Virus record (IMG/VR): IMGVR_UViG_3300043436_003696
Location: 26,099-90,098 of that record
Length of the DNA stretch: 64,000 bases
From: a virus
Reading direction: 5' to 3' (one strand)
A model generated the notes under the pieces. That model made no database searches. It was not told the origin of the DNA and saw nothing but the letters and a program-made list of their open reading frames with translations. The position numbers were made by a program, and so were the translations under genes. Positions 2-32,067 of this stretch are shown one piece after another. Position 1 is the first letter of the stretch. Each line of letters begins with the position of its first letter.

Positions 2-205
2 GAATTAGTTAATACTTATAATAAAATGTCTTCTACTAGAAAAACAGAATTTGCTAATAGTACTGGAATTAAAAACTCACAACAATTTGAAAGTAATGTA
101 ACTGAAATTGTAAATAAACTTTCTGAAAATGAAAATTTAACAACAAAAGATATTGATACAATAATTAGAGATACAATTAATAAATGTTTTAAAGGAAAAG
201 TATAA
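2..205 (+). CDS. 3' end of upstream large virion protein (partial)
   Basis: Open frame from base 2 (ELVNTYNK...INKCFKGKV*). Its TAA overlaps the next ATG (TAATG). Position matches the crAss giant-protein block. Confidence 0.7.
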   Translation, partial: ELVNTYNKMSSTRKTEFANSTGIKNSQQFESNVTEIVNKLSENENLTTKDIDTIIRDTINKCFKGKV

Positions 206-3200
206 TGGCTACATGTATAAACAGAAATCACCCTAATTTTAAACAAATTAGTGAAGCTAATAATAATAATGATATATTAGCTAATATTTTAATTGATAAT
301 TGGCAACAACGTAATAATACGGATATTATACCAACTTTAGAAGAATTAAAAGGTAAATCTTTTAGTGTTATTAAACCAGGTGTAGAAGAATTATTTGATT
401 CTAACCCTGAATTACCATCTCAAGTATATGAAGCTTTAGGGTTTGAAAATTTAACAAGAGACCAATTTAATAATATTACGAATATGAATTCTGATATTAA
501 TAATGGTTGGAAGTTACATTTATCTATAAAAGGAGTAGAAGAATATGAATCAACTGAAGACAGTACACCATCTAAAGAAATTGAAAAAAGAGCTACTAAA
601 ACAATTTCTATTTTAAATACTTTAAAAAATAGAAATTTAATACAAGATTATAAAATAGGAAATGATGGAGGGCAGCCAGGTAAAAACATTACAGTCTATA
701 TCGGAAATTCAAAAACTATAGATGAAGTTGTTAAAATATTATCAACAGATGAATTAAGAGAGTCTAACATAGAAGGAAATTTAAGTTTAGCTAAAGGTAT
801 TTCTGCAAGATTTGATTCTCATAGAAACGATTTAAAAGTAGATTCTGAAAAATATAAACTATTTAGATATGGTGTAAATGGAATACCAAATATAAGATAT
901 GGCTCTAGTGGAGTTAATCAATATTCAAATGAAGAAATTCCTTATAGTTTAGAATTGTTACAAGCATCATTAGGTAGTTATTTTAATAGTTCGTCTATTA
1001 TAAATAATAAACTTAATAAGCTATATCCTAATACTGTACAGATTAGCAGTCAAATAACCCCACAACAAAAACAACAAGCTTTACAACAATATTCTCAATA
1101 CTTAGATACTATATTTCCTGATAGTAAAGTAAAAGATATTGTTTATCATGGTACAGAAGATAAATTTGACAAATTTGATATAAAGTATTTTGGAAAAAAT
1201 GATTTCGGAGATTTAGGTAAAGGTTTTTATTTTGCTTTTGATAAAGCTAGTATATTTAATGAACCTATTGTTGTATCTGCTATTGTTAATGATACTAACA
1301 GTAAACAAAGTCCTGGATATGAGATAATGATTCCCAATGCAGAACAAATTCATATACTAGGAAATAAACAAGATATAGAAGGGTTTAAAGAGTTTGTAGG
1401 CAAAAAAAATAATTTAGAATCTTTTCAAAAAGATAAAGAAGGCAAAGTAATTAAAGTAGAAAGTAGTGACGAATTAATTGATTGGTTAAAACAAAATAAT
1501 ATAATTACAAAACAAACTGAAAAAGGTGATTGGTTATTAAAAGTTTCTATTGATGCAACACCTACAGGTATTCAAACTAATAAAAACTTAGATAAATTAA
1601 AAAGTATTAAAGGTAAAAATATAATAAGAATTAATAAAACCAATGAAAAATTTAAAGAAACTTTTAAAACTAATTTAAATATAATTGAACCTAATTTATT
1701 AAATAGTGGTATAGTTAAATTTAATAAAGAAGCTTTAACTTTATTAAATAGCCCCACTATAAATTTTCAATTATCTTCTAAAGATACTGAAAATTTTATA
1801 CCTGATGAACAATTAGATTCTCGTATTAGAGAATTTTGTACTAAACTTGGTATTAAAGTAAATATTGATTCTGTTTTAGATGCAGAAGGTAATCCTATAC
1901 CAGACGTTGTAGCCAGAGCTAAATTTGTTAGAGAAAACTTATCTGCTATTATTGATATTGCTCAAAATAAACAAGGTTATGACACGTTAACAGAAGAAGC
2001 TGTACATTTTTTAGTATGGATGATGCGAGGAACTCCTTTATATAATTCTATGATTAATGATGTAATAAAAACAGATACTTATAAACAAGTTAAAAAAGAA
2101 TATGCAAATGTATATTCTTCTGAAATACAGTTTAAAGAAGAAGCTATTACTAAATTAATAACTGAATCTGTTATTCAACAACACCAAAAAGGAACTAAAC
2201 TTACTTTTGATGAATATACCAATATTAATAATAGAATAAATCGTTGGTTTAATAAAGTAATGTCGTTTATAAAAGATTTATTAGCTAAATATTCTGTTAA
2301 TGAATATGATGTAGCTGCTATGAAACTTTTATTTAATGATACATCTGATTTATCTTTAAATAATATAAATAACAATGAAGAAATGTATCAATTAGAAACT
2401 AATGATATATCTTCTAAAATTAATGATGCGATTAATAAAATTAAAAGTAGACATATTAAAAGAGATTCTAACCATAAGTATAGTGAAGATGGTTTTGAGT
2501 ATTCAAAAAGTGTTACTGAATATATTCAAAGAAATAAACAATTTCCTGATAGAAGCCCTTCTGAAAAAGAACAAGACGAATTTGCTAGAAAAATAGGAGA
2601 TTTAGGTCACGCTGATTTTAATAACTCATTAAAAAGAGCAATTGAATTAAAAGAAATTGGTAGTTATAAAACAGCAATAGAAATATACACTAATCCCTCT
2701 ATTAGAAGTAAAATTGATACTTTAGTAGATGATATAGTTTCTTCTTATGGAGAAAATGCTAGATTCTTAACTGAACAAATGATTGGTGATAAAAGTAAAG
2801 ATATTGCAGGAGCATTTGACTTTTTAGTAGTTTATGAAAAAAATAATCAGGTAGAAGCAGAAATTTTAGATTTTAAATTTACTCAATTTAAAAAAGAAAA
2901 AAGTAAAGTAATTGCTGATGAAATACCTGCTTATAAAAAGAAAGATTATCAAGAACAGTTAAAAACATATAAAAATATTTTACAAAATGCTTATGGGTTA
3001 AAATTTAATATTAATGCGTCATTAATACCTATTGGATTAAACACTATTAAAAAAGACAATAATTGGTTTTTAACTGGTGTTGAAATAGGTTCTACTAAAT
3101 TTAATGAAGAAAAAAAATATTTAAATCCTATACCTTTAGAAACAAATAAAACAGGTAATGATTCTGTAGATTCTATAGTAGCTGGTTTAGTGGCACAAAA

Positions 3201-6141
3201 AAATATAATTACAAAACAAGAACCTGAAACAGAAGAAGAAAAAAATAAAAAAATTATACGTCTTAAATCAATTAATGCAACTATTAAAAAAATTATTCTT
3301 ACAAAAGATTTAGAAGAATTTTTTAACGAAGCTAAATTTGAATTAGATAATATTTTATCTGGTAATATAACACCTGAAAAATTAGAAGCTGCTGGAGAAA
3401 TTTTACCTTTTTATAAAAACTTAAACTTTAGTGATTATATTAGTTCTTTTTCAGAAGATAAAGAATTACAAAAAACAGCTGTAAATAATTTAGGTAATTT
3501 TTTAATTAAAATACAAAAAATAGAAAAAATTTATAACGAAAATTTAGATAAAATAGCTGATAGTATTGGAGAAAAACTTGGAGTTGATGGTATAAATATA
3601 CCACAAAAAGATATTGGGTGGTGGTCTAAAATACTTAGTTACTTTTCAAGTAGCCAAAATCCGCATATACAAAGTTTATATAAATTATGGATTTCTGCAA
3701 AAGATACTGCAAGATTAGCTTTTGAAAAAGATTTAACAGAAATTGAAAAACTTCATAAAGATGTTTTAGAGTATGCTTCTAAAAACGGTATTGAATCTAA
3801 AAATGCTTATAAATTCATGCTTAAAAGAGATAAATTTAATAATCTTATTTTAATTGATAAATTTAGTAAAGAAGCTAGAAAAAAAATAAATAAAGCTAGA
3901 GAAGAAAAAAATTACTCTTATCTAAAAAAAGTTTTAGAATTTGATGAAAAGAAATACCTTGAAAAATATGAACAAGATAAAGCTTTTTATGAAAAACGAT
4001 ATGAAGGGGATAATAAAAAAATAAAACAAATGTTAGAGTTAACTAAAAAACAATTTGATGTTAGAAAATCTGAATATGCTTTATTAAATAAAAATAATCG
4101 CTTTGTAAAACTAAATGAAAAAGAAGTAGAAAAATCTAGTGAGTATGAACACATACAAAAAACACCTGAATTAAAAGCTTTTTACGATTATTTTGTAGAT
4201 AAAGTTTCTAATACTAGAAAAGAATTAGGTTTAGAATATGATTATAAGTTTGTACCACAAATAGGTAAGTCTATTATAGAAGCTATAACAGATGACGATA
4301 CTAAATTTAGTTTTGGAGATAATTTTTGGAATAGTGTTTCTACTAATAAAAATGGTAGTTATGGTGAAGTAAATGTTTTAACAGGTAATGTTGAATACCA
4401 AATATCTATGCCTTATCAAACTAAAATTGGTGAAAATTCTTCAGCAGATTTAGGTAAAGTTTTAGCATTATGGAGTAAAGCTGCACATGATACTAACCAA
4501 CTTAAAAAAATAGAAACTAGTAGTAAAATATTATTACAACACCTTGAAAAACAAGAATTTTATTTAACAGATTTTTTTGGTGACCCCAAAACTAAAAAAG
4601 ATTCACAAGATTTAGCATTAGTCAATGCTGAAAATAGTAACACTCTATCTGCATATATTAGTTATATGCAAGAAGCTATTTACGGTGTACAAAACGCTAA
4701 TGGTATGGCATTACCTAAAACAAGAAAAAGAGCTAAACGTGATTCAGAAGGTAATGTTGTAAAAGATGAAAATGGTAATATTGTAATGGAAGAATATGAA
4801 TTACCTGTTAGTGTAGATAAGTTAGTACAAAAAGTATTATCTTATATATCTGGTAATGCTTTAGGTTTTAATGTAATTTCAGCAGGAGCTAACTTAGGTG
4901 GAGGATTAGCTAACGGTTATTATATAGCACATCAAGATAAATTTTACAATAAAAAACAATTTACTAACGCAATTAGATTATTTAGTGCTGGTAGTATGAA
5001 TCTTCAGACAAAAGCTTTATTAAGGTACTTTGATATTACAGGTAATATGGAAGGTTTTAATAAAGCAAATGCATTATCAGTAAGTGCTGCTGACAGATTT
5101 TTAACTTATGATAAGTTATATACACTACAGAAAAAAGGAGATGATTTAATACATAACACAATTTTATTATCATTACTTCAATCTCATGGTATTTCAGAAA
5201 ATGGTAAAATAAAACTTTTGTCTAAATTACCAGAAGGTACTAAATCTTTACTAGAATCTACTGAAATTAAAGAAGATGAAATTTATATTAAAGGATTAAC
5301 TGATAATAAAGATAAAACAGAATATTTAAATTTTAGACGTAAAGCACATGAACTATCTAAAAAAATAGTAGGTGTTAGTCCTGACCATGATATTAGATTA
5401 GCTAATCAAACTATTATGGGTAGAATATTAATGCAGTTTAGAAATTGGTTGCCTAGAATGGCTGAAGAAAGATTTATGATTGGTACTAGATTTAATAAAA
5501 ATTTAGATGATTTTGAAAAAGGTAGATACATTAGTTTTGTACAGTTTCTTAATAAAAATATAACTGATGGTATGCTACAAATAACAAAATCATATATTGG
5601 TATAGGTGGTAATTTTGATGAAGTACTTTCTAAAAAATGGGAATTATTAAATCAAGAAACTAAAAACAAATATTTAAATAATACAGCAAATGAAGCAGAA
5701 GCAAAAGCGTCTTTCATATCTACTGAAAAAGCTAATTTAAAAGCAACAGTTTTAGAATTACAACTCATGTCTTTATTATTTGCTGCATTAATGCTATTAA
5801 ATGGTGGGGATGATGATGATGATAAATCACCAGTTAAAAAAATGCTTATAGCTATGACAGATAGATTACATAGTGAACTTTCTTTTTTTGTTTTACCACC
5901 ATCATTTTTAACAATTATAAAATCTCCTGTAGCTGCAAGTAGTACACTTAATGATAGTTATAACATAGTTGAAGATATTATAGGTCAAACAGTAGGTTTT
6001 ATTACAAATGATGAAGATAGAATGGATAAAAATAAACCTTTAAAAAGAACAGGTAAAATGTTTCCGCTTTTAAAAGAAGGTATAAAAGATTTTGACATTA
6101 TGTTTGATGACAGTTATCTTGATAATATTAAAAGTTGGTAA
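205..6141 (+). CDS. Giant (1978 aa) crAss-like virion/ejected polyvalent protein with lyase-like, ART-like, zincin-like and PD-(D/E)xK-like segments
   Basis: N-terminal MATCINRNHPNFK; GWKLHLS...GKNITVY; VYHGT...GKGFYF; TLTEEAVHF; AGAFDFLVV...ILDFKFT; long helical C-terminus. Last gene of a + block, followed by a terminator. Confidence 0.7.
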   Translation: MATCINRNHPNFKQISEANNNNDILANILIDNWQQRNNTDIIPTLEELKGKSFSVIKPGVEELFDSNPELPSQVYEALGFENLTRDQFNNITNMNSDINNGWKLHLSIKGVEEYESTEDSTPSKEIEKRATKTISILNTLKNRNLIQDYKIGNDGGQPGKNITVYIGNSKTIDEVVKILSTDELRESNIEGNLSLAKGISARFDSHRNDLKVDSEKYKLFRYGVNGIPNIRYGSSGVNQYSNEEIPYSLELLQASLGSYFNSSSIINNKLNKLYPNTVQISSQITPQQKQQALQQYSQYLDTIFPDSKVKDIVYHGTEDKFDKFDIKYFGKNDFGDLGKGFYFAFDKASIFNEPIVVSAIVNDTNSKQSPGYEIMIPNAEQIHILGNKQDIEGFKEFVGKKNNLESFQKDKEGKVIKVESSDELIDWLKQNNIITKQTEKGDWLLKVSIDATPTGIQTNKNLDKLKSIKGKNIIRINKTNEKFKETFKTNLNIIEPNLLNSGIVKFNKEALTLLNSPTINFQLSSKDTENFIPDEQLDSRIREFCTKLGIKVNIDSVLDAEGNPIPDVVARAKFVRENLSAIIDIAQNKQGYDTLTEEAVHFLVWMMRGTPLYNSMINDVIKTDTYKQVKKEYANVYSSEIQFKEEAITKLITESVIQQHQKGTKLTFDEYTNINNRINRWFNKVMSFIKDLLAKYSVNEYDVAAMKLLFNDTSDLSLNNINNNEEMYQLETNDISSKINDAINKIKSRHIKRDSNHKYSEDGFEYSKSVTEYIQRNKQFPDRSPSEKEQDEFARKIGDLGHADFNNSLKRAIELKEIGSYKTAIEIYTNPSIRSKIDTLVDDIVSSYGENARFLTEQMIGDKSKDIAGAFDFLVVYEKNNQVEAEILDFKFTQFKKEKSKVIADEIPAYKKKDYQEQLKTYKNILQNAYGLKFNINASLIPIGLNTIKKDNNWFLTGVEIGSTKFNEEKKYLNPIPLETNKTGNDSVDSIVAGLVAQKNIITKQEPETEEEKNKKIIRLKSINATIKKIILTKDLEEFFNEAKFELDNILSGNITPEKLEAAGEILPFYKNLNFSDYISSFSEDKELQKTAVNNLGNFLIKIQKIEKIYNENLDKIADSIGEKLGVDGINIPQKDIGWWSKILSYFSSSQNPHIQSLYKLWISAKDTARLAFEKDLTEIEKLHKDVLEYASKNGIESKNAYKFMLKRDKFNNLILIDKFSKEARKKINKAREEKNYSYLKKVLEFDEKKYLEKYEQDKAFYEKRYEGDNKKIKQMLELTKKQFDVRKSEYALLNKNNRFVKLNEKEVEKSSEYEHIQKTPELKAFYDYFVDKVSNTRKELGLEYDYKFVPQIGKSIIEAITDDDTKFSFGDNFWNSVSTNKNGSYGEVNVLTGNVEYQISMPYQTKIGENSSADLGKVLALWSKAAHDTNQLKKIETSSKILLQHLEKQEFYLTDFFGDPKTKKDSQDLALVNAENSNTLSAYISYMQEAIYGVQNANGMALPKTRKRAKRDSEGNVVKDENGNIVMEEYELPVSVDKLVQKVLSYISGNALGFNVISAGANLGGGLANGYYIAHQDKFYNKKQFTNAIRLFSAGSMNLQTKALLRYFDITGNMEGFNKANALSVSAADRFLTYDKLYTLQKKGDDLIHNTILLSLLQSHGISENGKIKLLSKLPEGTKSLLESTEIKEDEIYIKGLTDNKDKTEYLNFRRKAHELSKKIVGVSPDHDIRLANQTIMGRILMQFRNWLPRMAEERFMIGTRFNKNLDDFEKGRYISFVQFLNKNITDGMLQITKSYIGIGGNFDEVLSKKWELLNQETKNKYLNNTANEAEAKASFISTEKANLKATVLELQLMSLLFAALMLLNGGDDDDDKSPVKKMLIAMTDRLHSELSFFVLPPSFLTIIKSPVAASSTLNDSYNIVEDIIGQTVGFITNDEDRMDKNKPLKRTGKMFPLLKEGIKDFDIMFDDSYLDNIKSW

Positions 6142-7817: not shown

Positions 7818-8002
7818 TATAATTCAGCTCCTTTTCTTGGTGGTATAATAATTGATACAGGTTCTTTTCTTTTAAAAACTTGTACCCAACTTATTTTTTC
7901 TTCATACATTTTTTCACCAAAAAATTCTTTAGCTTTTTTTTGTGCTTTAAAAATATCTTCAGCTTCTATATTTAATGTAAATTCAAATTGTCGTAACATC
8001 AT
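7817..8002 (-). CDS. Hypothetical protein
   Basis: Small ORF translationally coupled to its neighbours. Confidence 0.5.
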   Translation of the reverse strand: MMLRQFEFTLNIEAEDIFKAQKKAKEFFGEKMYEEKISWVQVFKRKEPVSIIIPPRKGAEL

Positions 8003-8196
8003 ATTTCTATTTCTTCATCTAAATTGTTAATAAACTGTGTATGTAAATGATTAAAAGATTTTTCTTCATCATCAATAAAAGTTGTGCAACCACATGTTGC
8101 ACAACTATGTTTTTTACTTGGAATTGGATTTAAACAATTTCTACATTGATTAAATTTATCAGGATTATTTATTACTTCTTCAATCGTCACTATCAT
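7999..8196 (-). CDS. Small zinc-ribbon protein
   Basis: CRNC...CATC. Confidence 0.55.
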   Translation of the reverse strand: MIVTIEEVINNPDKFNQCRNCLNPIPSKKHSCATCGCTTFIDDEEKSFNHLHTQFINNLDEEIEI

Positions 8197-8286
8197 TTTT
8201 ATGTATTAAATCTACATGTTCATTACAATTATTACACCAAGTATCATTACTTTCCCCATTTACTATTGCACCTAAATCTGCCATAA

Positions 8287-8502
8287 TTATTCTATTTTTA
8301 GCAATCCTAGTTTTTTACATTTTATTTTAAAATCTTTAACTTTTTCTTGTATTGCTGAAAAAGGTATATCTTGATTATCTCCACCATTTTCTACAAAATC
8401 TACTAAAGAAACTTTAATATACGGTTCTGCTGAATCAGTTTTTAAAATTACCCATCCTGTATCATAAGGGTAACTAATTTCAAGGCTTATAATATTTCCC
8501 AT
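8287..8502 (-). CDS. Hypothetical protein
   Basis: 71 aa ORF immediately downstream of polA. Confidence 0.5.
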   Translation of the reverse strand: MGNIISLEISYPYDTGWVILKTDSAEPYIKVSLVDFVENGGDNQDIPFSAIQEKVKDFKIKCKKLGLLKIE

Positions 8503-27332: not shown

Positions 27333-28373
27333 TTAAATGATAAATAATTGTTTTACTTTTTGTTTTTTGTTGGTTATTATTATAGGTTCTTGAAATTCAA
27401 GATTAATTGTTGGTGTTAATGGATATTGGCTATTTACAGGACTACTAGCTGTATGAATTTTACTTTCATTATCTGTTGAAAATAAAAATGTAGTACCAGA
27501 ATCAATTGTATCTGCTGAAGTTCCCAATGCAGTATTAAAATTACCTGTAATATTATTATAAAGTCCTTCTACTCCCAATGTCGAGTAAAGACAGTTATTT
27601 GTTTTTACTAATTTAGCAGATTTAGCAAATAGAGAATTATCAGAAAAATAATCAAATCTTTTAGTTGTATCAGAATTAATAAGTATATCACCAGATATAT
27701 GTTTGTGTTCATAAATACAAGTATTAGATTTTAAATTCCAAGTAGAATTATTAGAATCTAATAAATTATTCATTTTTTGAATATCTGTATGAATATTTAC
27801 AATTTCTATTATTTCTTTATTATTTTTATCATCTGTAATTTCATAATGATTACCTATTTCTAATTTAACTACTGGTTCTTTTTTGGTTTCAAGATTACTT
27901 TCAGAAATAAAATCTTCGGGTATTAGTTCATATTTAGTTTGATTTTTTTCAAGTACGCCAGAACAAAGATATCCATGTTGACTAGGAAAATTAGCTTCTA
28001 ACGAAGTTTTTTCATGGTTAGTAATTAATCCATATTCTCCTGCTTTAACGTTACCTGCCTGAGGGTAATCAATTAAAGCTTTTAAATATCTACCAACTAA
28101 CGATTTTTTTTCAAGTTCTTCTTTCAATACCCATTTTTTAAATTGCTCAAATGAAATTTCTGTATGCGCAGAACGTTTATAAAAACCCCAATTATTGTTA
28201 GATAATCCTTTTTCTATTACTTCTTCTAATTTTGATGGATAAAATCCGATTTTTCCTTCAATTAACCCACATTCAATTTTGTCAAAATATTCAGCTACAA
28301 TTTTAGCTTCTTCTAATGTATTAGGTTTAATATACCATTTTTCAGGTAATTCTTTTAATTCATTGTCTATCAT
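27333..28373 (-). CDS. Hypothetical multi-module protein
   Basis: 346 aa; LPEKWYI...EISFEQFKKWVLK N-terminal module. Confidence 0.65.
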   Translation of the reverse strand: MIDNELKELPEKWYIKPNTLEEAKIVAEYFDKIECGLIEGKIGFYPSKLEEVIEKGLSNNNWGFYKRSAHTEISFEQFKKWVLKEELEKKSLVGRYLKALIDYPQAGNVKAGEYGLITNHEKTSLEANFPSQHGYLCSGVLEKNQTKYELIPEDFISESNLETKKEPVVKLEIGNHYEITDDKNNKEIIEIVNIHTDIQKMNNLLDSNNSTWNLKSNTCIYEHKHISGDILINSDTTKRFDYFSDNSLFAKSAKLVKTNNCLYSTLGVEGLYNNITGNFNTALGTSADTIDSGTTFLFSTDNESKIHTASSPVNSQYPLTPTINLEFQEPIIITNKKQKVKQLFII

Positions 28374-28594
28374 AATTTTGTATCTTCTAATTGTATTACA
28401 ATTTCTAATAAATCATTAACTTCTTTTTCAAGTTTTTCATGTTCATTACGAAGTTCTGTAAAAAACCTAACTGCATCATGGTGTTCAACTTTTACCATAT
28501 CTTGCATAACTTGTAAAACATATTCAAAAGATTTTTCTTCTGCTTTACACCATTGATTTATTGTAGCTAATTTAAGTTTTGTTATTTGTTTCAT
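28370..28594 (-). CDS. Hypothetical protein
   Basis: 74 aa coupled ORF. Confidence 0.55.
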   Translation of the reverse strand: MKQITKLKLATINQWCKAEEKSFEYVLQVMQDMVKVEHHDAVRFFTELRNEHEKLEKEVNDLLEIVIQLEDTKL

Positions 28595-28775
28595 AGTTTA
28601 ATATATTTTAAAACATTTTCTTTTTCTTGTACCATACCATATCCAAATCCCTTCCTTAGAAACATCTATTCTAGGTTTAAAGGAAAGTTCTACTATTATG
28701 TAGATTAATAATATTGTTGTTAATAATTCAAAATCCATAATTTTATTTTAGTTTAATTCTTTTGTAATTAGTTTG

Positions 28776-29122
28776 TGGAGATGTGGGGAGTCGAACCCCA
28801 GTCCGAATAGTTGCTATAATACAACTTGATTACATGCTTAAATCTATTATTGCTAATTGATTAGTATTAGGCTGAACCGAAATTCAGCTCCACCAGTTAG
28901 TTTAAAGTTCTAACAAACTTTTGATTAAGCAGCTAAAGCTACTTTTTCAGTTTTAGCAAATAAAGCTACAATGTTATTTGTAGTTGTTTCAGCAAAATTC
29001 CTAGAATTTTCTGAAATTGTATTGTTGTTTGCGTTTGTTTTTGATACTAATTTAGATGTAATGTATCTACCATCGCATGATTGTATTAAGGCTTAACACT
29101 CTCGTCAATTCCCGTCATCCCC
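28776..29122 (-). ncRNA. ssrA: tmRNA
   Basis: 5' GGGGATGACGGGAATTGAC; 3' GGACTGGGGTTCGACTCCCCACATCTCCA; acceptor stem GGGGATG/CATCTCC with G3:U70; internal tag frame 29032-28925 ending ALAA-stop. Confidence 0.95.
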
Positions 29123-29183: not shown

Positions 29184-32067
29184 TTATATTTTAAATCTGT
29201 TATTTGGATAAGATGATACCTTAACCCCATTTTCATTAAAAAGTTCAACAAAAATACAACCCTTATCTTCATAGTCGTTAAAAGCTTTTGTGGTTGTTTC
29301 GTAATACTTTTTAAGGGGGCTTTTACCCCTAAAATAAATTATTGCATACTTTTTACTTTTTTTTGTAGTTGCCATAACATTTATTCAGTTGCCTATATTC
29401 TGAAAGGTTCTAATTTATAAAAGCTATTGGCAAGTGCTACAACTCGTCCATAACAGCCATTAACATTAACGGACTAAAGCATACATAGCAAAATATTACA
29501 AACAACATTCCACCTCTTGCATCTTGCGACCATAGAAATGGGTTTGTTTCTGCTTTTAAAAAAGCTATTGCTATGTAAGCAAGTACCGACCAAATAATTA
29601 GTCCTAATGAAACTAATCCTAATGCTTTTACTGTGTTATTCATTTTTCGTTTAATTTAAAGTTTTAGTTTTCAAAATAGCCTTCTGGAATTAAAGACATA
29701 AATCTGCTCATTGGTCTTGGTGTTCCTTCTTGTTCTTTTCCGTAAGCGTATTGAAATGCTCGAACACTACTAAACACTTGTTCTTCTTGTTCTCCGAATG
29801 AGCAAATAGTATTGCTTATTGTATCATAAAAAGCAAAGTCGTTTTGTCCTTCGCAGATTTGGTTTTTTAAATTTAAAAATATAATCATATTTTTGTTGAA
29901 TTTACTTGTGAATAAACCGCACTACTACATAACGTTATAACATTCTAATATATGCCTCTTCAAGTTTCCATTCACAATGAGCTATTGCGTTTGCCTGCTT
30001 TTCTTTATTACTATCATCATTGTACCAGTCGTATACTTCGGAGTCGTTTGTGTATGTTTCAACTTCTTCCCCATTTACAGTTCCACTAATTACGTATCTT
30101 CCATAAGATGAAGTGCTAGATACTTTGATGTTTTCTATTGTGTGTGTGAATTTCATTTTGCGAGTTTTTAAATTGTTATTGTTGTTGTTATTGTTATTTA
30201 ACGGTACGAATGTAAATTTATTATTGACAATAGTTTAGTGTTCCAAAATTTTCTACTTCGCCAAGTCCTGTTCGTTGTATGCAATTTTATTTTACAGTCA
30301 CTAAATAATTTTCTCCAACGTAGTTACCTAACAATCTAAAAGTTAAACCTTTAGGAAGATATTGTCTTTTTAAATGCTTTATAACTGATTTTACCGATGT
30401 TAAATGTGCAGTATTGGTATTATGAGGATATGGAGTATCATAGCTGACCCATATATTTGTTTCATTATTGTACCAAAAATCACCTTCACATTGTAACCAC
30501 CATTTGCTTTTACCATCTAAAGGTTTTCTACGCAACGGAAATTTAGTGTATTTATCACGTGTAATTTTAATTACTCTATTTTGCTTAAAGGTTTCTTTTG
30601 GTTTTGCTGTTAAATCAATTGTTTTAAACTGTTCAAATGATTCTTCACTATAAACATTTTTCATTCTTTCTAAAACAAAATCATTTTTACAATTTTGGAT
30701 TAAATATATATCTAACCAAGTTGGAGTATTCATAATAGGAATTTCACCATTTAAAAAATCTTTTTCTTCATAAGTCCAAACCCAATCACTAATACAAACT
30801 GTTAACCCATCAAAAAATGTTAATTTTTGACTATCTGCCCAAATTTTAAACTCTTTATAATCTTTATAAGAGTTTGTGTATGTTTTATCTATTCCTGCCA
30901 TATTAATTTCTGCGTTTATTACTTTACGTTATAAGTAATGCTTACTAACGCACTCAACTAACTCATTATATTCCTCAATCCATTCAATGTTAATCTTTAA
31001 CCCAGCATTATAGTATCGAGCAATTGCTCCACGCACTTTATTAAATCGTTCTACTTTTACTCGTTCAAAGAAAACATCGTGAAATCTTTTAGGTATCAAT
31101 CCTAATGGTGGTTCGATAGCATTACCGCTAATAGCACTTATATTTAATTGGGCGGTTTTTTGGTTATTCAAATTTTCTACTTTCATCTTTTATTTGTTAT
31201 TTAAAGTTTGTACTATTTAATCCTCTCCTTTCATCACTTATAAATAAATTCTTTATAAAATTGTCAATATCTTTAATATTTTCTTCCCAAGAATATTCGT
31301 TGTCTAACATATATAAAGAAACTTCACTTGAATCAACTTGTGAATTTCTACCATAAACACCTTTATAAAACCTCAATAATATATTATCATCTGATTTATC
31401 ACCAAATATATAATAAGCTATTGCATCCGTAGCATAAGGATATTTATTACCATATTTTTTGTATAGTTTTTGAATGTTATCAACAACACTCACATTTTTA
31501 TTTACAAATTGCTTAAAGTTCTTAATTTTATCAATCATTTTTTTAATATCTTTACTCATAGGTTTTTTCATTACATAAAATATTAATAATTAAATAATTA
31601 AGTAAAACTACATATATAATATAGTTATATGCTATTTTAACCCATCACACCCAAAATGGTTATAAAGTATTATTTGTTTCTTTACAATCATTATAGTTGC
31701 ATCAGGACTTTCGATTGTATCTGTTTCATATTTTGTTTGGCATTTGTAATACTTTTCTCCATGTACTGTTATATAATATTTAATAGTAGATGGTATAAAT
31801 GCCACCAAAAATATGCAAACAAATAAAATCCATTGCTTAAATAGTAGTATTTTTGAAATTAATCTTTTCATATTTATTTTATTTTAACATTTGTTCTTTA
31901 AAAAGTTTCATCGCTTCCTCGCACATTACTTTTATTGTTTTAGAACAAATATTATTTGAAAATGCCCCTTGCACTTCGTTATTATGCCATTCATAGTTAA
32001 TAACAGTATTGTTATTATTGTCATCTACTTCTATTTCAATGTCTTTTACTTTTACTTTTATTCTCAT
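29184..32067 (-). other. Array of small unrelated ORFs separated by degenerate attC-like arms
   Basis: ORFs 29184-29375, 29437-29643, 29664-29888, 29935-30156, 30287-30901, 30929-31186, 31197-31571, 31632-31871 and 31879-32067. Minus-strand GTTATAACG, GCATACAACG...CTTGGCGAAG, ACTTATAACG and GCATATAAC occur at or right after stops. Confidence 0.6.
30287..30901 (-). CDS. Hypothetical protein
   Basis: 204 aa ORF, largest in the array. Confidence 0.65.
   Translation of the reverse strand: MAGIDKTYTNSYKDYKEFKIWADSQKLTFFDGLTVCISDWVWTYEEKDFLNGEIPIMNTPTWLDIYLIQNCKNDFVLERMKNVYSEESFEQFKTIDLTAKPKETFKQNRVIKITRDKYTKFPLRRKPLDGKSKWWLQCEGDFWYNNETNIWVSYDTPYPHNTNTAHLTSVKSVIKHLKRQYLPKGLTFRLLGNYVGENYLVTVK

What the first reader, a model, noticed from the sequence alone, without database searches (positions are those of the whole stretch)
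28776..29122. Phage tmRNA with an exceptionally long (35 aa) tag
Seen: the tRNA-like domain is intact with G3:U70, and CCA is not encoded (CAA follows the discriminator). The frame from GCA at 29032 gives ANNNTISENSRNFAETTTNNIVALFAKTEKVALAA*. Known: most tags are about 10 residues, and Bacteroidota tags are of the GENNYALAA type. The resume codon is inferred from its A-rich upstream context. Inference: the extra residues may change protease/adaptor targeting or ribosome rescue during infection. No smpB is seen in the window, so host SmpB would be needed.
Basis: partly seen in the sequence, partly recalled or inferred. Interest (0 to 1): 0.7.

Follow-up and report, generated by a model that had tools for sequence, protein, structure and literature searches.

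The report
Phage tmRNA with 35-residue tag
A lake-water crAss-like phage carries its own ribosome-rescue RNA (tmRNA) whose built-in peptide tag is most likely 35 residues, the top of the published range, and part of that length arose when the tag's end was duplicated in frame.

Summary
The tmRNA is real: Rfam RF00023 scores 82.4 bits (E 2e-30) and ARAGORN finds it at 28775-29122(-). It lies in a complete 90-kb crAss-like lake phage with no tRNA, SmpB, ClpP, Lon or integrase.

I judge that call an artefact. On 10 of 10 loci of a long-tag phage tmRNA family whose frame is proven by synonymous change, ARAGORN gives a short C-terminal piece or finds nothing.

- It lies 10 nt after pseudoknot 1, with A at -4.
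- It aligns with the Rfam consensus resume codon.
- It is collinear with a related phage tmRNA (L097) that resumes at the same gene position, 91.
- ARAGORN's "start" is the counterpart of the last Ala codon in a significant 27-nt in-frame tandem duplication of the tag end.

Weak points: no close relative could be reached, the open frame alone is not significant, and nothing shows what the extra residues do.

Earlier notes of this scan report long-tag tmRNAs in other crAss-like phages. This tag lacks the conserved core of the family I collected. Verdict: a new variant of a known kind, moderate interest.

The parts
28776..29122 (-). One-piece tmRNA gene, from the mature 5' G at 29122 to the discriminator A at 28776. 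CAA follows at 28775-28773, so CCA is not encoded.
   Evidence: ARAGORN; Rfam RF00023 at 82.4 bits, E 2e-30; sequence; the MFE fold has z -5.14, and 0 of 100 shuffles fold as well.
29116..29122 (-). Acceptor stem, 5' strand GGGGAUG. G3 pairs with U70.
   Evidence: Sequence; Rfam alignment with PP *.
28777..28799 (-). T arm (28785-28799) and acceptor 3' strand CAUCUCC (28777-28783).
   Evidence: Sequence; Rfam alignment. The 29-nt 3' end is shared exactly with 11 viral, 28 metagenome and 4 genome loci.
29043..29074 (-). Pseudoknot 1. Stem 1 is GAUG/CAUC (gene positions 49-52 and 65-68). Stem 2 is GAUAC/GUAUC (gene positions 56-60 and 76-80).
   Evidence: Read from the sequence. Stem 2 is aligned to the PK1 stem of RF00023. 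It is collinear with L097, where stem 2 is GAUAU/AUAUC, a change on both sides, ending at the same gene position 80.
29033..29042 (-). 10-nt single-stranded spacer AAAAACAAAC, with A at -4 and C at -5.
   Evidence: For comparison, E. coli has an 11-nt spacer and a critical A at -4 (PMC2481249).
28925..29032 (-). Tag reading frame: resume codon GCA at 29032-29030, 35 codons, stop UAA at 28927-28925. It encodes ANNNTISENSRNFAETTTNNIVALFAKTEKVALAA.
   Evidence: Translation. The Rfam consensus GCaAACgAc aligns to GCAAACAAC with PP *.
28987..29016 (-). Hairpin inside the tag frame (codons 6-15, -8.8 kcal/mol). Rfam aligns it with the helix-5 hairpin, which in the consensus holds the stop codon. Here the loop holds only an out-of-frame UAG.
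28966..28983 (-). Second small hairpin inside the tag frame (6 bp, -4.6 kcal/mol).
28952..28978 (-). Tandem repeat unit 1 (9 codons, NNIVALFAK).
   Evidence: the repeat finder D1, 70% identity over 27 nt. At least 19 of 27 matches is reached by 0 of 5000 base shuffles and 24 of 5000 codon shuffles.
28925..28951 (-). Tandem repeat unit 2 (TEKVALAA plus the stop).
28955..28957 (-). GCU that ARAGORN takes as the resume codon (gene position 166). It is the counterpart, in repeat unit 1, of the last Ala codon before the stop in unit 2.
   Evidence: codon layout.
28830..28924 (-). Short structured region between the stop and the tRNA-like domain: one H-type pseudoknot candidate (AAAGUU/AACUUU with GUUAG/CUAAC), two hairpins, and the conserved UAAGCAUGUA strand of helix 2 (28831-28840).
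   Evidence: The pseudoknot pairing was read by eye.

Best explanation
This is a working, phage-encoded one-piece tmRNA.

Proposed mechanism (inferred from established tmRNA biology, not tested here):
1. The RNA is transcribed in the infected cell and trimmed.
2. The host adds the CCA end.
3. Host alanyl-tRNA synthetase charges it with alanine through the G3:U70 pair.
4. Host SmpB and EF-Tu carry it to ribosomes stalled on broken mRNAs.
5. Translation resumes at GCA (29032), 10 nt after pseudoknot 1. It runs through two hairpins and ends at UAA (28927-28925). This adds 35 encoded residues that finish in the canonical VALAA degradation signal.
6. The ribosome is freed, and host proteases presumably destroy the tagged product.

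Shown here: the tag is three to four times the usual length because the message part of the RNA has expanded in frame. The last step visible in the sequence is a 27-nt (9-codon) tandem duplication of the tag end, in which the upstream copy's stop position now reads AAA (Lys).
For: Gene identity: Rfam 82.4 bits, E 2e-30, full model; ARAGORN; fold z -5.14.

Resume site:
- The Rfam alignment puts the consensus resume codon and first three codons (GCaAACgAc) on GCAAACAAC at 29032 with the highest posterior.
- PK1 stem 2 ends 10 nt before it, and -4 is A. In E. coli the spacer is 11 nt, A at -4 is the critical base, and U at -5 tolerates C (PMC2481249, passages read).
- The 5' 100 nt align without gaps to L097, a tmRNA from a crAss-like phage with 35% TerL identity. 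Its PK1 also ends at gene position 80, its spacer also ends in AACAAAC, and its resume is also at position 91. ARAGORN itself calls a 26-residue tag from that site.
- In 22 of 22 other one-piece tmRNAs for which ARAGORN reported a tag of 26 residues or fewer, the coding part starts at gene positions 84-96. The window's GCA is at position 91 and ARAGORN's choice is at 166.

ARAGORN's short call is an artefact:
- I collected a family of crAss-like phage tmRNAs with one open frame of 37-42 codons. Its core shows 8 of 14 codon columns varying only synonymously.
- On 10 loci of that family, ARAGORN reports an arbitrary 8-10-residue C-terminal piece in 7 and no gene in 3. It never reports the full tag.

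Duplication:
- The 27-nt tandem repeat is significant (0 of 5000 and 24 of 5000 shuffles).
- It is a whole number of codons.
- It makes ARAGORN's GCU-AAA the counterpart of the terminal GCU-UAA. The sequence upstream of ARAGORN's start is therefore former tag-coding sequence in the same frame.

Not an attachment-site remnant: the gene is full length, and there is no integrase or resolvase.

Weak hint of expression: two metatranscriptome runs of one study hold contigs that lie wholly inside the gene (28864-29114 and 28784-28993, 0 differences). Neither covers 28200-28760.
Against: - No relative close enough to show conservation of the first 25 codons was found in the viral, metagenome, genome-species or GenBank phage collections.
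- The open frame is not significant on its own: 10-22% of shuffles or random 75-mers are also open.
- ARAGORN's site also has U at -5 and A at -4, and it follows a hairpin by 8 nt. A downstream resume cannot be excluded from sequence alone.
- Two hairpins lie inside the long frame.
- The RNA evidence is contigs from one study. It cannot show strand, ends or level, and DNA carry-over is possible.
- The closest complete relatives (TerL 59% and 48%) have no tmRNA at all, so the gene is dispensable for this kind of phage.
- The host, and therefore SmpB compatibility, is unknown.
Confidence: 0.7

Rival explanations
1. Short tag. Translation resumes at the downstream GCU (28957), as ARAGORN says, giving the ordinary-length tag AKTEKVALAA. 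The 75 nt between PK1 and that codon would be an untranslated structured insert of two hairpins.
For: - ARAGORN calls this site, with the 'resume consensus' tttatttgctaaaactga.
- U at -5 and A at -4 precede this GCU, and it lies 8 nt after a hairpin.
- The upstream stretch being stop-free is not significant.
- PK1 can be replaced without loss of activity in E. coli, and the local upstream bases set the frame (PMC2481249).
Against: - ARAGORN makes the same kind of call, or finds nothing, on 10 of 10 loci of a family whose long frame is shown by synonymous change.
- Gene position 166 is far outside the 84-96 range seen in 22 of 22 other one-piece genes.
- Rfam aligns the resume codon at 29032.
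- The GCU is the counterpart of a terminal Ala codon in a duplicated tag end.
- The first codons GCU AAA ACU do not resemble the consensus start, while GCA AAC AAC does.
Confidence: 0.15
2. Not a tagging RNA. The gene acts mainly as a decoy that soaks up host SmpB or blocks host trans-translation, as reported for a tRNA-like-domain-only molecule. Alternatively, it is a decaying acquisition whose message part is no longer read.
For: - A molecule with only the tRNA-like domain strongly inhibits tmRNA, perhaps by titrating SmpB (PMC4131195 passage; PMC11915505 passage).
- Phage contigs here do carry genes of about 82 nt with only the tRNA-like domain and the same 3' end.
- The closest relatives lack the gene.
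- The pseudoknot region after the stop is reduced.
Against: - The message part is complete: PK1, spacer, consensus-like start and a canonical VALAA-stop end in one frame.
- The tRNA-like domain is intact, with G3:U70.
- The identical sequence recurs in lake metagenomes of many studies (20 runs, 16 studies) with no differences inside the gene in the 4 runs laid.
Confidence: 0.1
3. Host fragment or attachment site. The sequence is a piece of host ssrA carried by a temperate phage that integrates into the tmRNA gene.
For: Prophages often integrate into ssrA and carry fragments of it (PMC9004378 passage).
Against: - The gene is full length, covering both ends and model positions 1-374.
- There is no tyrosine or serine recombinase in the complete genome.
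- The phage is crAss-like with rIIA.
- The only cellular genomes sharing the 3' 29-mer are Verrucomicrobia-type MAG contigs with a different 10-residue tag, plus two contigs where ARAGORN finds no gene.
Confidence: 0.03

Closest known systems
Standard one-piece bacterial tmRNA (SsrA, Rfam RF00023), for example E. coli with the encoded tag ANDENYALAA
   Same: - tRNA-like domain with G3:U70.
- Helix 2 and PK1.
- A-rich spacer of 10-11 nt with A at -4.
- Resume codon GCA followed by AAC.
- Tag ending in ALAA plus UAA.

   Different: - The tag is 35 codons rather than 10.
- The hairpin that Rfam aligns to helix 5 holds no in-frame stop.
- The region after the stop is short.
- CCA is not encoded.
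- The gene is carried by a phage that has no smpB.
tmRNA of the crAss-like phage record behind L097 (IMGVR_UViG_3300034121_000850)
   Same: - Nearest 5' module: a gap-free alignment of the first 100 nt.
- PK1 ends at gene position 80.
- The spacer ends in AACAAAC.
- Resume is at gene position 91.
- The tag is long (26 residues).
- CCA is not encoded.

   Different: - The resume codon is GGC.
- The tag sequence is unrelated (GKVKNLSNHVGFVNYAAPRVQYGIAA).
- Whole-gene identity is only about 63% of columns, no higher than with unrelated tmRNAs.
- TerL identity is only 35%.
Long-tag tmRNA family of crAss-like phages with the core ANM(N/S)VVHNIL
   Same: - Carried by crAss-like phages.
- One open frame from the canonical resume position (gene positions 87-90) to an ...AA stop.
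- Tags of 37-42 residues.
- A hairpin inside the frame.
- ARAGORN miscalls or misses them.

   Different: - The window's tag lacks the core motif.
- It starts with Ala rather than Gly or Asp.
- Overall nucleotide identity is at background level, 58-65% of columns.
- The family's translation is shown by synonymous changes. The window's is not.
Mycoplasma tmRNA with a 27-residue tag
   Same: A tag much longer than 10 residues. In vitro work suggests the mycoplasma tag evolved for recognition by Lon rather than ClpXP (PMC8403727, introduction passage read). This is a precedent for tag length going with a change of protease.
   Different: - It is cellular, not viral.
- The host lacks ClpXP.
- No sequence comparison was made here.
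- The window's tag keeps the usual ALAA end.
Previously reported phage tmRNAs (mycobacteriophages of the Bxz1 group, Bacillus phage G, the two-piece tmRNA of phage Melnitz; 402 of 18,146 phage genomes in one survey)
   Same: A phage-borne ssrA without smpB. Proposed roles are keeping the hijacked translation machinery running or recycling amino acids (PMC4131195; PMC9004378; passages read).
   Different: The passages I read do not mention long tags or crAss-like phages. The supplementary tables of those papers were not available, so tag lengths listed there could not be checked.

Membership tests
One-piece tmRNA (Rfam RF00023) | Covariance-model score above the curated gathering score, over the whole model | tested here: met
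   82.4 bits against 47, E 2e-30, model positions 1-374
One-piece tmRNA (Rfam RF00023) | 7-bp acceptor stem with G3:U70 and a T arm (alanine identity, tRNA-like domain) | tested here: met
   GGGGAUG/CAUCUCC, discriminator A, T arm GGGG-UUCGACU-CCCC
One-piece tmRNA (Rfam RF00023) | Pseudoknot 1 followed by a short single-stranded spacer with A at -4 and a resume codon | tested here: met
   PK1 at gene positions 49-80, spacer of 10 nt, A at -4, GCA at position 91. The rule comes from PMC2481249.
One-piece tmRNA (Rfam RF00023) | Tag reading frame ending in a hydrophobic ...LAA-type end and a stop codon | tested here: met
   ...VALAA then UAA, in frame with the resume codon
One-piece tmRNA (Rfam RF00023) | Encoded 3' CCA | tested here: not met
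   CAA follows the discriminator. This is not a defining feature: the position does not always encode CCA (PMC11915505 figure legend).
One-piece tmRNA (Rfam RF00023) | Dedicated partner SmpB | tested here: not met
   No PF01668 match in the complete phage genome. A host SmpB would be needed, and the host is unknown.
One-piece tmRNA (Rfam RF00023) | Alanylation and trans-translation activity | not testable with these tools
   Needs biochemistry or proteomics
Long-tag tmRNA family of crAss-like phages (core ANM(N/S)VVHNIL) | Conserved peptide core in the tag | tested here: not met
   The core pattern is absent from the window's gene. The scan with the core pattern gave 13 viral loci, none of them this phage.
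Long-tag tmRNA family of crAss-like phages (core ANM(N/S)VVHNIL) | Open frame of 35 or more codons from the canonical resume position, in a crAss-like phage | tested here: met
   35 codons from gene position 91; crAss-like genome
Long-tag tmRNA family of crAss-like phages (core ANM(N/S)VVHNIL) | Nucleotide similarity above background | tested here: not met
   58-65% identical columns, the same as with unrelated tmRNAs at 59-63%
tRNA-like-domain-only 'mini' tmRNA (phage DS6A type) | No message part | tested here: not met
   The full message part is present, so this gene is not of that type.

The most novel reading that the evidence does not exclude
Tag lengthening to about 26-42 residues may have happened independently in several tmRNA lineages of crAss-like phages: this one, the L097 type, and the ANM-core family. 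In this gene it happened by in-frame duplication of the tag end, leaving two VAL(F/A)A motifs.

That would point to selection for a long tag as such. Two possibilities:
- A tag about as long as the ribosomal exit tunnel.
- A long unstructured handle with a second recognition motif, which hands rescued polypeptides to a protease or fate other than the host's usual ClpXP route.

Either way, the phage would re-route what happens to unfinished proteins during infection.
Probability: 0.2. Interest if true: 0.7.

Novelty: new variant of a known kind. Interest (0 to 1): 0.45.

Why it matters
Phage tmRNAs are known but rarely studied, and their tags are usually taken from ARAGORN.

Two practical points follow from this work:
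- ARAGORN mis-reports or misses long tags. It failed on 10 of 10 loci of a family whose long frame conservation proves, and it gave the same kind of short call on this gene. Surveys of phage tmRNAs probably underestimate tag length for that reason.
- This gene shows one way a tag grows: an in-frame tandem duplication of its end, with the old stop position now read as a sense codon.

If the long tags of crAss-like phages do more than mark proteins for ClpXP, they would be a simple viral handle on host protein quality control. That can be tested with a non-stop reporter. I found no paper that describes long tags in phage tmRNAs (full-text searches; supplements were closed).

Tried and rejected
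Searches for close relatives of this tmRNA all failed:
- blastn of 501 nt against GenBank phages gave no match.
- The exact 20-nt 5' end gave 0 hits in viral contigs.
- The exact 29-nt 3' end gave 11 viral, 4 genome and 28 metagenome loci. All were other tmRNA types: a 309-nt family with the tag AN(N/I)NVEF(D/E)SVALAA, cyanophage two-piece forms, Verrucomicrobia ADSNELALAA, and genes with only the tRNA-like domain.
- A pattern for ANNN, a gap of 66-96 nt, then ALAA-stop gave 1 chance hit in a two-piece tmRNA.
- A back-translation of EKVALAA-stop gave 4 hits, none of them a tmRNA.
- The neighbouring 346-aa protein has no relatives in viral contigs or in G004-G006.

TerL route:
- A search with the single protein found only identical fragments.
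- A TerL alignment found 260 relatives, of which the best 80 were kept.
- I searched the records behind 50 of those 80, leaving out mostly short contigs and two fragments of the same phage. 49 were searched, because L087 is not held.
- Closer relatives exist only as Logan or JGI proteins P0002-P0006, at 63-71% TerL identity. I could not fetch their DNA.

Population variants: the 4 runs laid showed no differences inside the gene, so no polymorphism test was possible. Parts without cover in RNA contigs are not evidence.

Other ideas dropped:
- The tag frame has no ATG, GTG or TTG start, so I did not look for it among called proteins.
- The sigma-70 promoter scan showed no enrichment and found no terminator.
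- I considered the out-of-frame UAG in the loop of the first hairpin as a stop. That frame has no Ala or Gly resume codon and no hydrophobic end, so I rejected it.
- I recall that ARAGORN's source has an upper limit on the distance to the tag end. I could not confirm this: the ARAGORN paper is not held and the help text is silent. The claim therefore rests on ARAGORN's behaviour.
- I did not make shortened versions of the gene to probe ARAGORN.
Full report
WHAT IS THERE

ARAGORN finds one gene in the 64-kb window, a tmRNA at 28775-29122 on the minus strand. Rfam's tmRNA model RF00023 matches 28773-29122 over its whole length with 82.4 bits (gathering score 47, E 2e-30), and this is the only family hit in the window.

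The RNA strand shows:
- the acceptor stem GGGGAUG/CAUCUCC with G3:U70;
- the discriminator A at 28776, followed by CAA rather than CCA;
- a normal T arm.

The whole RNA folds much better than shuffles (z -5.14; 0 of 100 shuffles fold as well). The frame from GCA at 29032 reads ANNNTISENSRNFAETTTNNIVALFAKTEKVALAA and then UAA, and the other two frames are closed early.

WHERE IT SITS

The window is bases 26099-90098 of an IMG/VR virus record of 90,098 bases that CheckV rates complete.
- It has a large terminase, a portal and a major head protein of about 500 aa from crAss-type PHROG families, plus a DNA polymerase, a primase and helicases and an rIIA homologue.
- TerL is about 32% identical to Flavobacterium phage FpV4 and its kin, and 28-30% to gut crAss-like phages.
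- The DNA is about 25% G+C.
- The stretch occurs in lake-water and freshwater metagenomes (20 runs from 16 studies listed).

A Bacteroidota host is therefore likely, but this is inferred, not shown.

The complete genome has:
- no tRNA gene;
- no SmpB;
- no ClpP, Lon or RF-1/ArfB-type domain;
- no integrase or resolvase.

The genes beside the tmRNA match no Pfam family.

THE CENTRAL QUESTION: WHERE DOES TRANSLATION RESUME?

ARAGORN reports the 10-residue tag AKTEKVALAA, starting at gene position 166. Both candidate starts are in the same frame, so the question is only which one is used.

1. The open frame alone does not decide it. The 75 nt between the two candidate starts are stop-free in 10-22% of shuffles or random 75-mers of this genome.

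2. Geometry favours the upstream GCA.
   - Pseudoknot 1 (GAUG/CAUC and GAUAC/GUAUC) ends at gene position 80. A spacer AAAAACAAAC follows, and GCA is at position 91 with A at -4.
   - In E. coli, 11 nt separate PK1 from the resume codon, A at -4 is the critical base, and the U at -5 can be C (PMC2481249, passages read).
   - Rfam aligns its consensus resume region GCaAACgAc to GCAAACAAC with the highest posterior probability.

3. Homology of the 5' module supports it. The first 100 nt align without a gap to L097, a tmRNA in a 99%-complete crAss-like record with 35% TerL identity.
   - There PK1 stem 2 is GAUAU/AUAUC, a change on both sides relative to the window.
   - It ends at the same position 80, and the spacer also ends in AACAAAC.
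   - The resume codon is also at position 91, and ARAGORN itself reads a 26-residue tag from it.

4. ARAGORN's short call is a reproducible failure. I searched 49 records of TerL relatives (50 handles given out of 80 loci kept; L087 not held). Four genes in three records passed the tmRNA cut-off. Three of them share a peptide core. A pattern scan for that core gave 13 viral loci, 10 of them with an RF00023 hit, making 7 distinct sequences.
   - In all 7, one frame runs from a G-starting codon at gene positions 87-90, preceded by A at -4, to an ...AA stop. The tags are 37-42 residues, despite indels.
   - In the 14-codon core, 8 columns vary only synonymously (including Leu UUA/CUA/CUU), 4 change residue and 2 are invariant. 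Those long frames are therefore read as protein.
   - On these 10 loci ARAGORN reports an arbitrary 8-10-residue C-terminal piece in 7 and no gene in 3. It never reports the full tag.

5. ARAGORN's start looks like a relic of a duplicated tag end. The last 54 nt of the frame are a tandem repeat of a 27-nt unit: NNIVALFAK, then TEKVALAA plus the stop.
   - At least 19 of 27 matches at that period is reached by 0 of 5000 base shuffles and 24 of 5000 codon shuffles.
   - In this register, ARAGORN's GCU-AAA corresponds to the terminal GCU-UAA.
   - So the sequence just upstream of ARAGORN's start is a copy of tag-coding sequence in the same frame. The frame must already have been entered from further upstream.

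6. Points that remain for the short tag. Its site has U at -5 and A at -4, and it follows a hairpin by 8 nt. No relative of this particular gene could be found to show conservation of the first 25 codons.

I put the long tag at about 0.7 and the short tag at about 0.15.

ANATOMY

Two hairpins lie inside the frame, at gene positions 107-136 (-8.8 kcal/mol) and 140-157 (-4.6 kcal/mol). Rfam aligns the first with helix 5, whose loop holds the stop codon in the consensus. Here the loop has only an out-of-frame UAG. The ANM-core family also has a hairpin in its core, but two members carry synonymous changes that weaken it, so there the peptide is what is conserved (read by eye).

After the stop, only about 85 nt separate it from the conserved UAAGCAUGUA strand. 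This region has one pseudoknot candidate and two hairpins.

EXPRESSION

Two metatranscriptome runs of one study hold contigs identical to the window that lie wholly within the gene: 28864-29114 and 28784-28993. One of the two also covers 29186-29410, over a 63-aa ORF. This is a weak hint only.

DISTRIBUTION

The closest complete relatives, G004 (TerL 59%) and G005 (48%), have rIIA at 37-39% identity. They have neither the tmRNA nor the adjacent 346-aa gene. Among the 9 related records that are at least 90% complete, 3 have a tmRNA over the cut-off. The gene is therefore an accessory in a variable region.

HOW IT MOST LIKELY WORKS

The steps follow established tmRNA biology and are inferred for this gene:
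1. The host adds CCA.
2. Host AlaRS charges the RNA through G3:U70.
3. Host SmpB and EF-Tu deliver it to stalled ribosomes.
4. Translation resumes at 29032 and ends at 28927-28925.
5. Host proteases recognise the VALAA end.

Published suggestions for why a phage would carry a tmRNA are keeping the hijacked translation apparatus free, or recycling amino acids (PMC9004378, passage read). What the extra 25 residues do is unknown. The only precedent I read for length going with a change of protease is the 27-residue mycoplasma tag and Lon (PMC8403727, passage read).

COMPARISON WITH WHAT IS KNOWN
- Phage tmRNAs are in print: PMC4131195 lists ten phages, including one with only the tRNA-like domain, and PMC9004378 counts 402 of 18,146 phage genomes.
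- A review gives 8-35 residues as the range of tag lengths (PMC8012679).
- The 2025 tmRNA database paper gives 10 as the commonest length and discusses very short tags. The passages I found do not discuss long phage tags (PMC11915505).
- My full-text searches found no description of long tags in phage or crAss-like tmRNAs. I saw only search listings and the passages named. Supplements were closed.
- Earlier notes of this scan report long-tag tmRNAs in other crAss-like lake phages as a family with an invariant core. I reached what is probably that family by my own route and confirmed that its frame is coding. I could not see the notes' sequences, so this match is inferred.
- The window's gene is not a member by sequence. 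The core is absent and nucleotide identity is at background.

VERDICT

This is a real, probably functional phage tmRNA with a probable 35-residue tag. The tag sits at the top of the published range and is of a distinct lineage, and an in-frame duplication explains part of its length. It is a new variant of a known kind, with interest 0.45.

Noticed in passing
L002:1887-1969, L004:1853-1935, L009:1815-1897, L008:4139-4220, L012:1474-1555; also L114:4789-4870, L126:1814-1896, L128:5201-5282: Phage and metagenome contigs carry genes of about 82 nt that match the whole tmRNA model (51.9-65.5 bits) with the tRNA-like domain only and no message part. They share the window's exact 29-nt 3' end. ARAGORN finds nothing there. 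The only such form I saw in print for phages is DS6A.
   Followed up: partly
L099/L150 and L105/L139 (record IMGVR_UViG_3300025853_000041, G037 at 103911-104311 and 7947-8326): One complete 105-kb crAss-like phage carries two tmRNA genes. Their tags share the first 23 residues or so, including the core, but have different C-terminal halves (42 and 40 residues).
   Followed up: partly
L148:460-485 and 785-1010: A match to the long-tag core pattern lies about 300 nt upstream of a group I intron (RF00028, 82.8 bits), and no RF00023 hit is reported. This may be an intron-interrupted phage tmRNA.
   Followed up: no
L140:5904-5979 and L144:3583-3658: ARAGORN reports a tRNA of unknown identity with a four-base anticodon (ggat) about 370 nt downstream of the long-tag tmRNA. 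Rfam calls it a tRNA at 58 bits.
   Followed up: no
window 29184-29375 (-): A 63-aa ORF just upstream of the tmRNA is covered by a 225-nt metatranscriptome contig (29186-29410) in run X17. It has no Pfam match.
   Followed up: no
window 28860-28867 and 29044-29051: There is an 8-nt perfect complementarity between the 3' strand of PK1 and a stretch after the stop codon (repeat finder I4). It may be chance or a long-range pairing.
   Followed up: no
window 205-6141 (+): A 1978-aa ORF lies at the start of the window and was not examined. From memory, crAss-like phages carry a very large virion RNA polymerase gene, and this may be it.
   Followed up: no
whole record G000: The complete 90-kb phage has no tRNA gene at all. 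The tmRNA is its only ARAGORN-detectable RNA gene.
   Followed up: yes
L003, L005, L011, L111-L137 (many): A uniform 309-nt one-piece tmRNA with the tag AN(N/I)NVEF(D/E)SVALAA recurs next to tRNA-Met and tRNA-Asn genes. Where the contig is long, it is 76-169 kb. It shares the ANNN start and VALAA end with the window's tag.
   Followed up: partly
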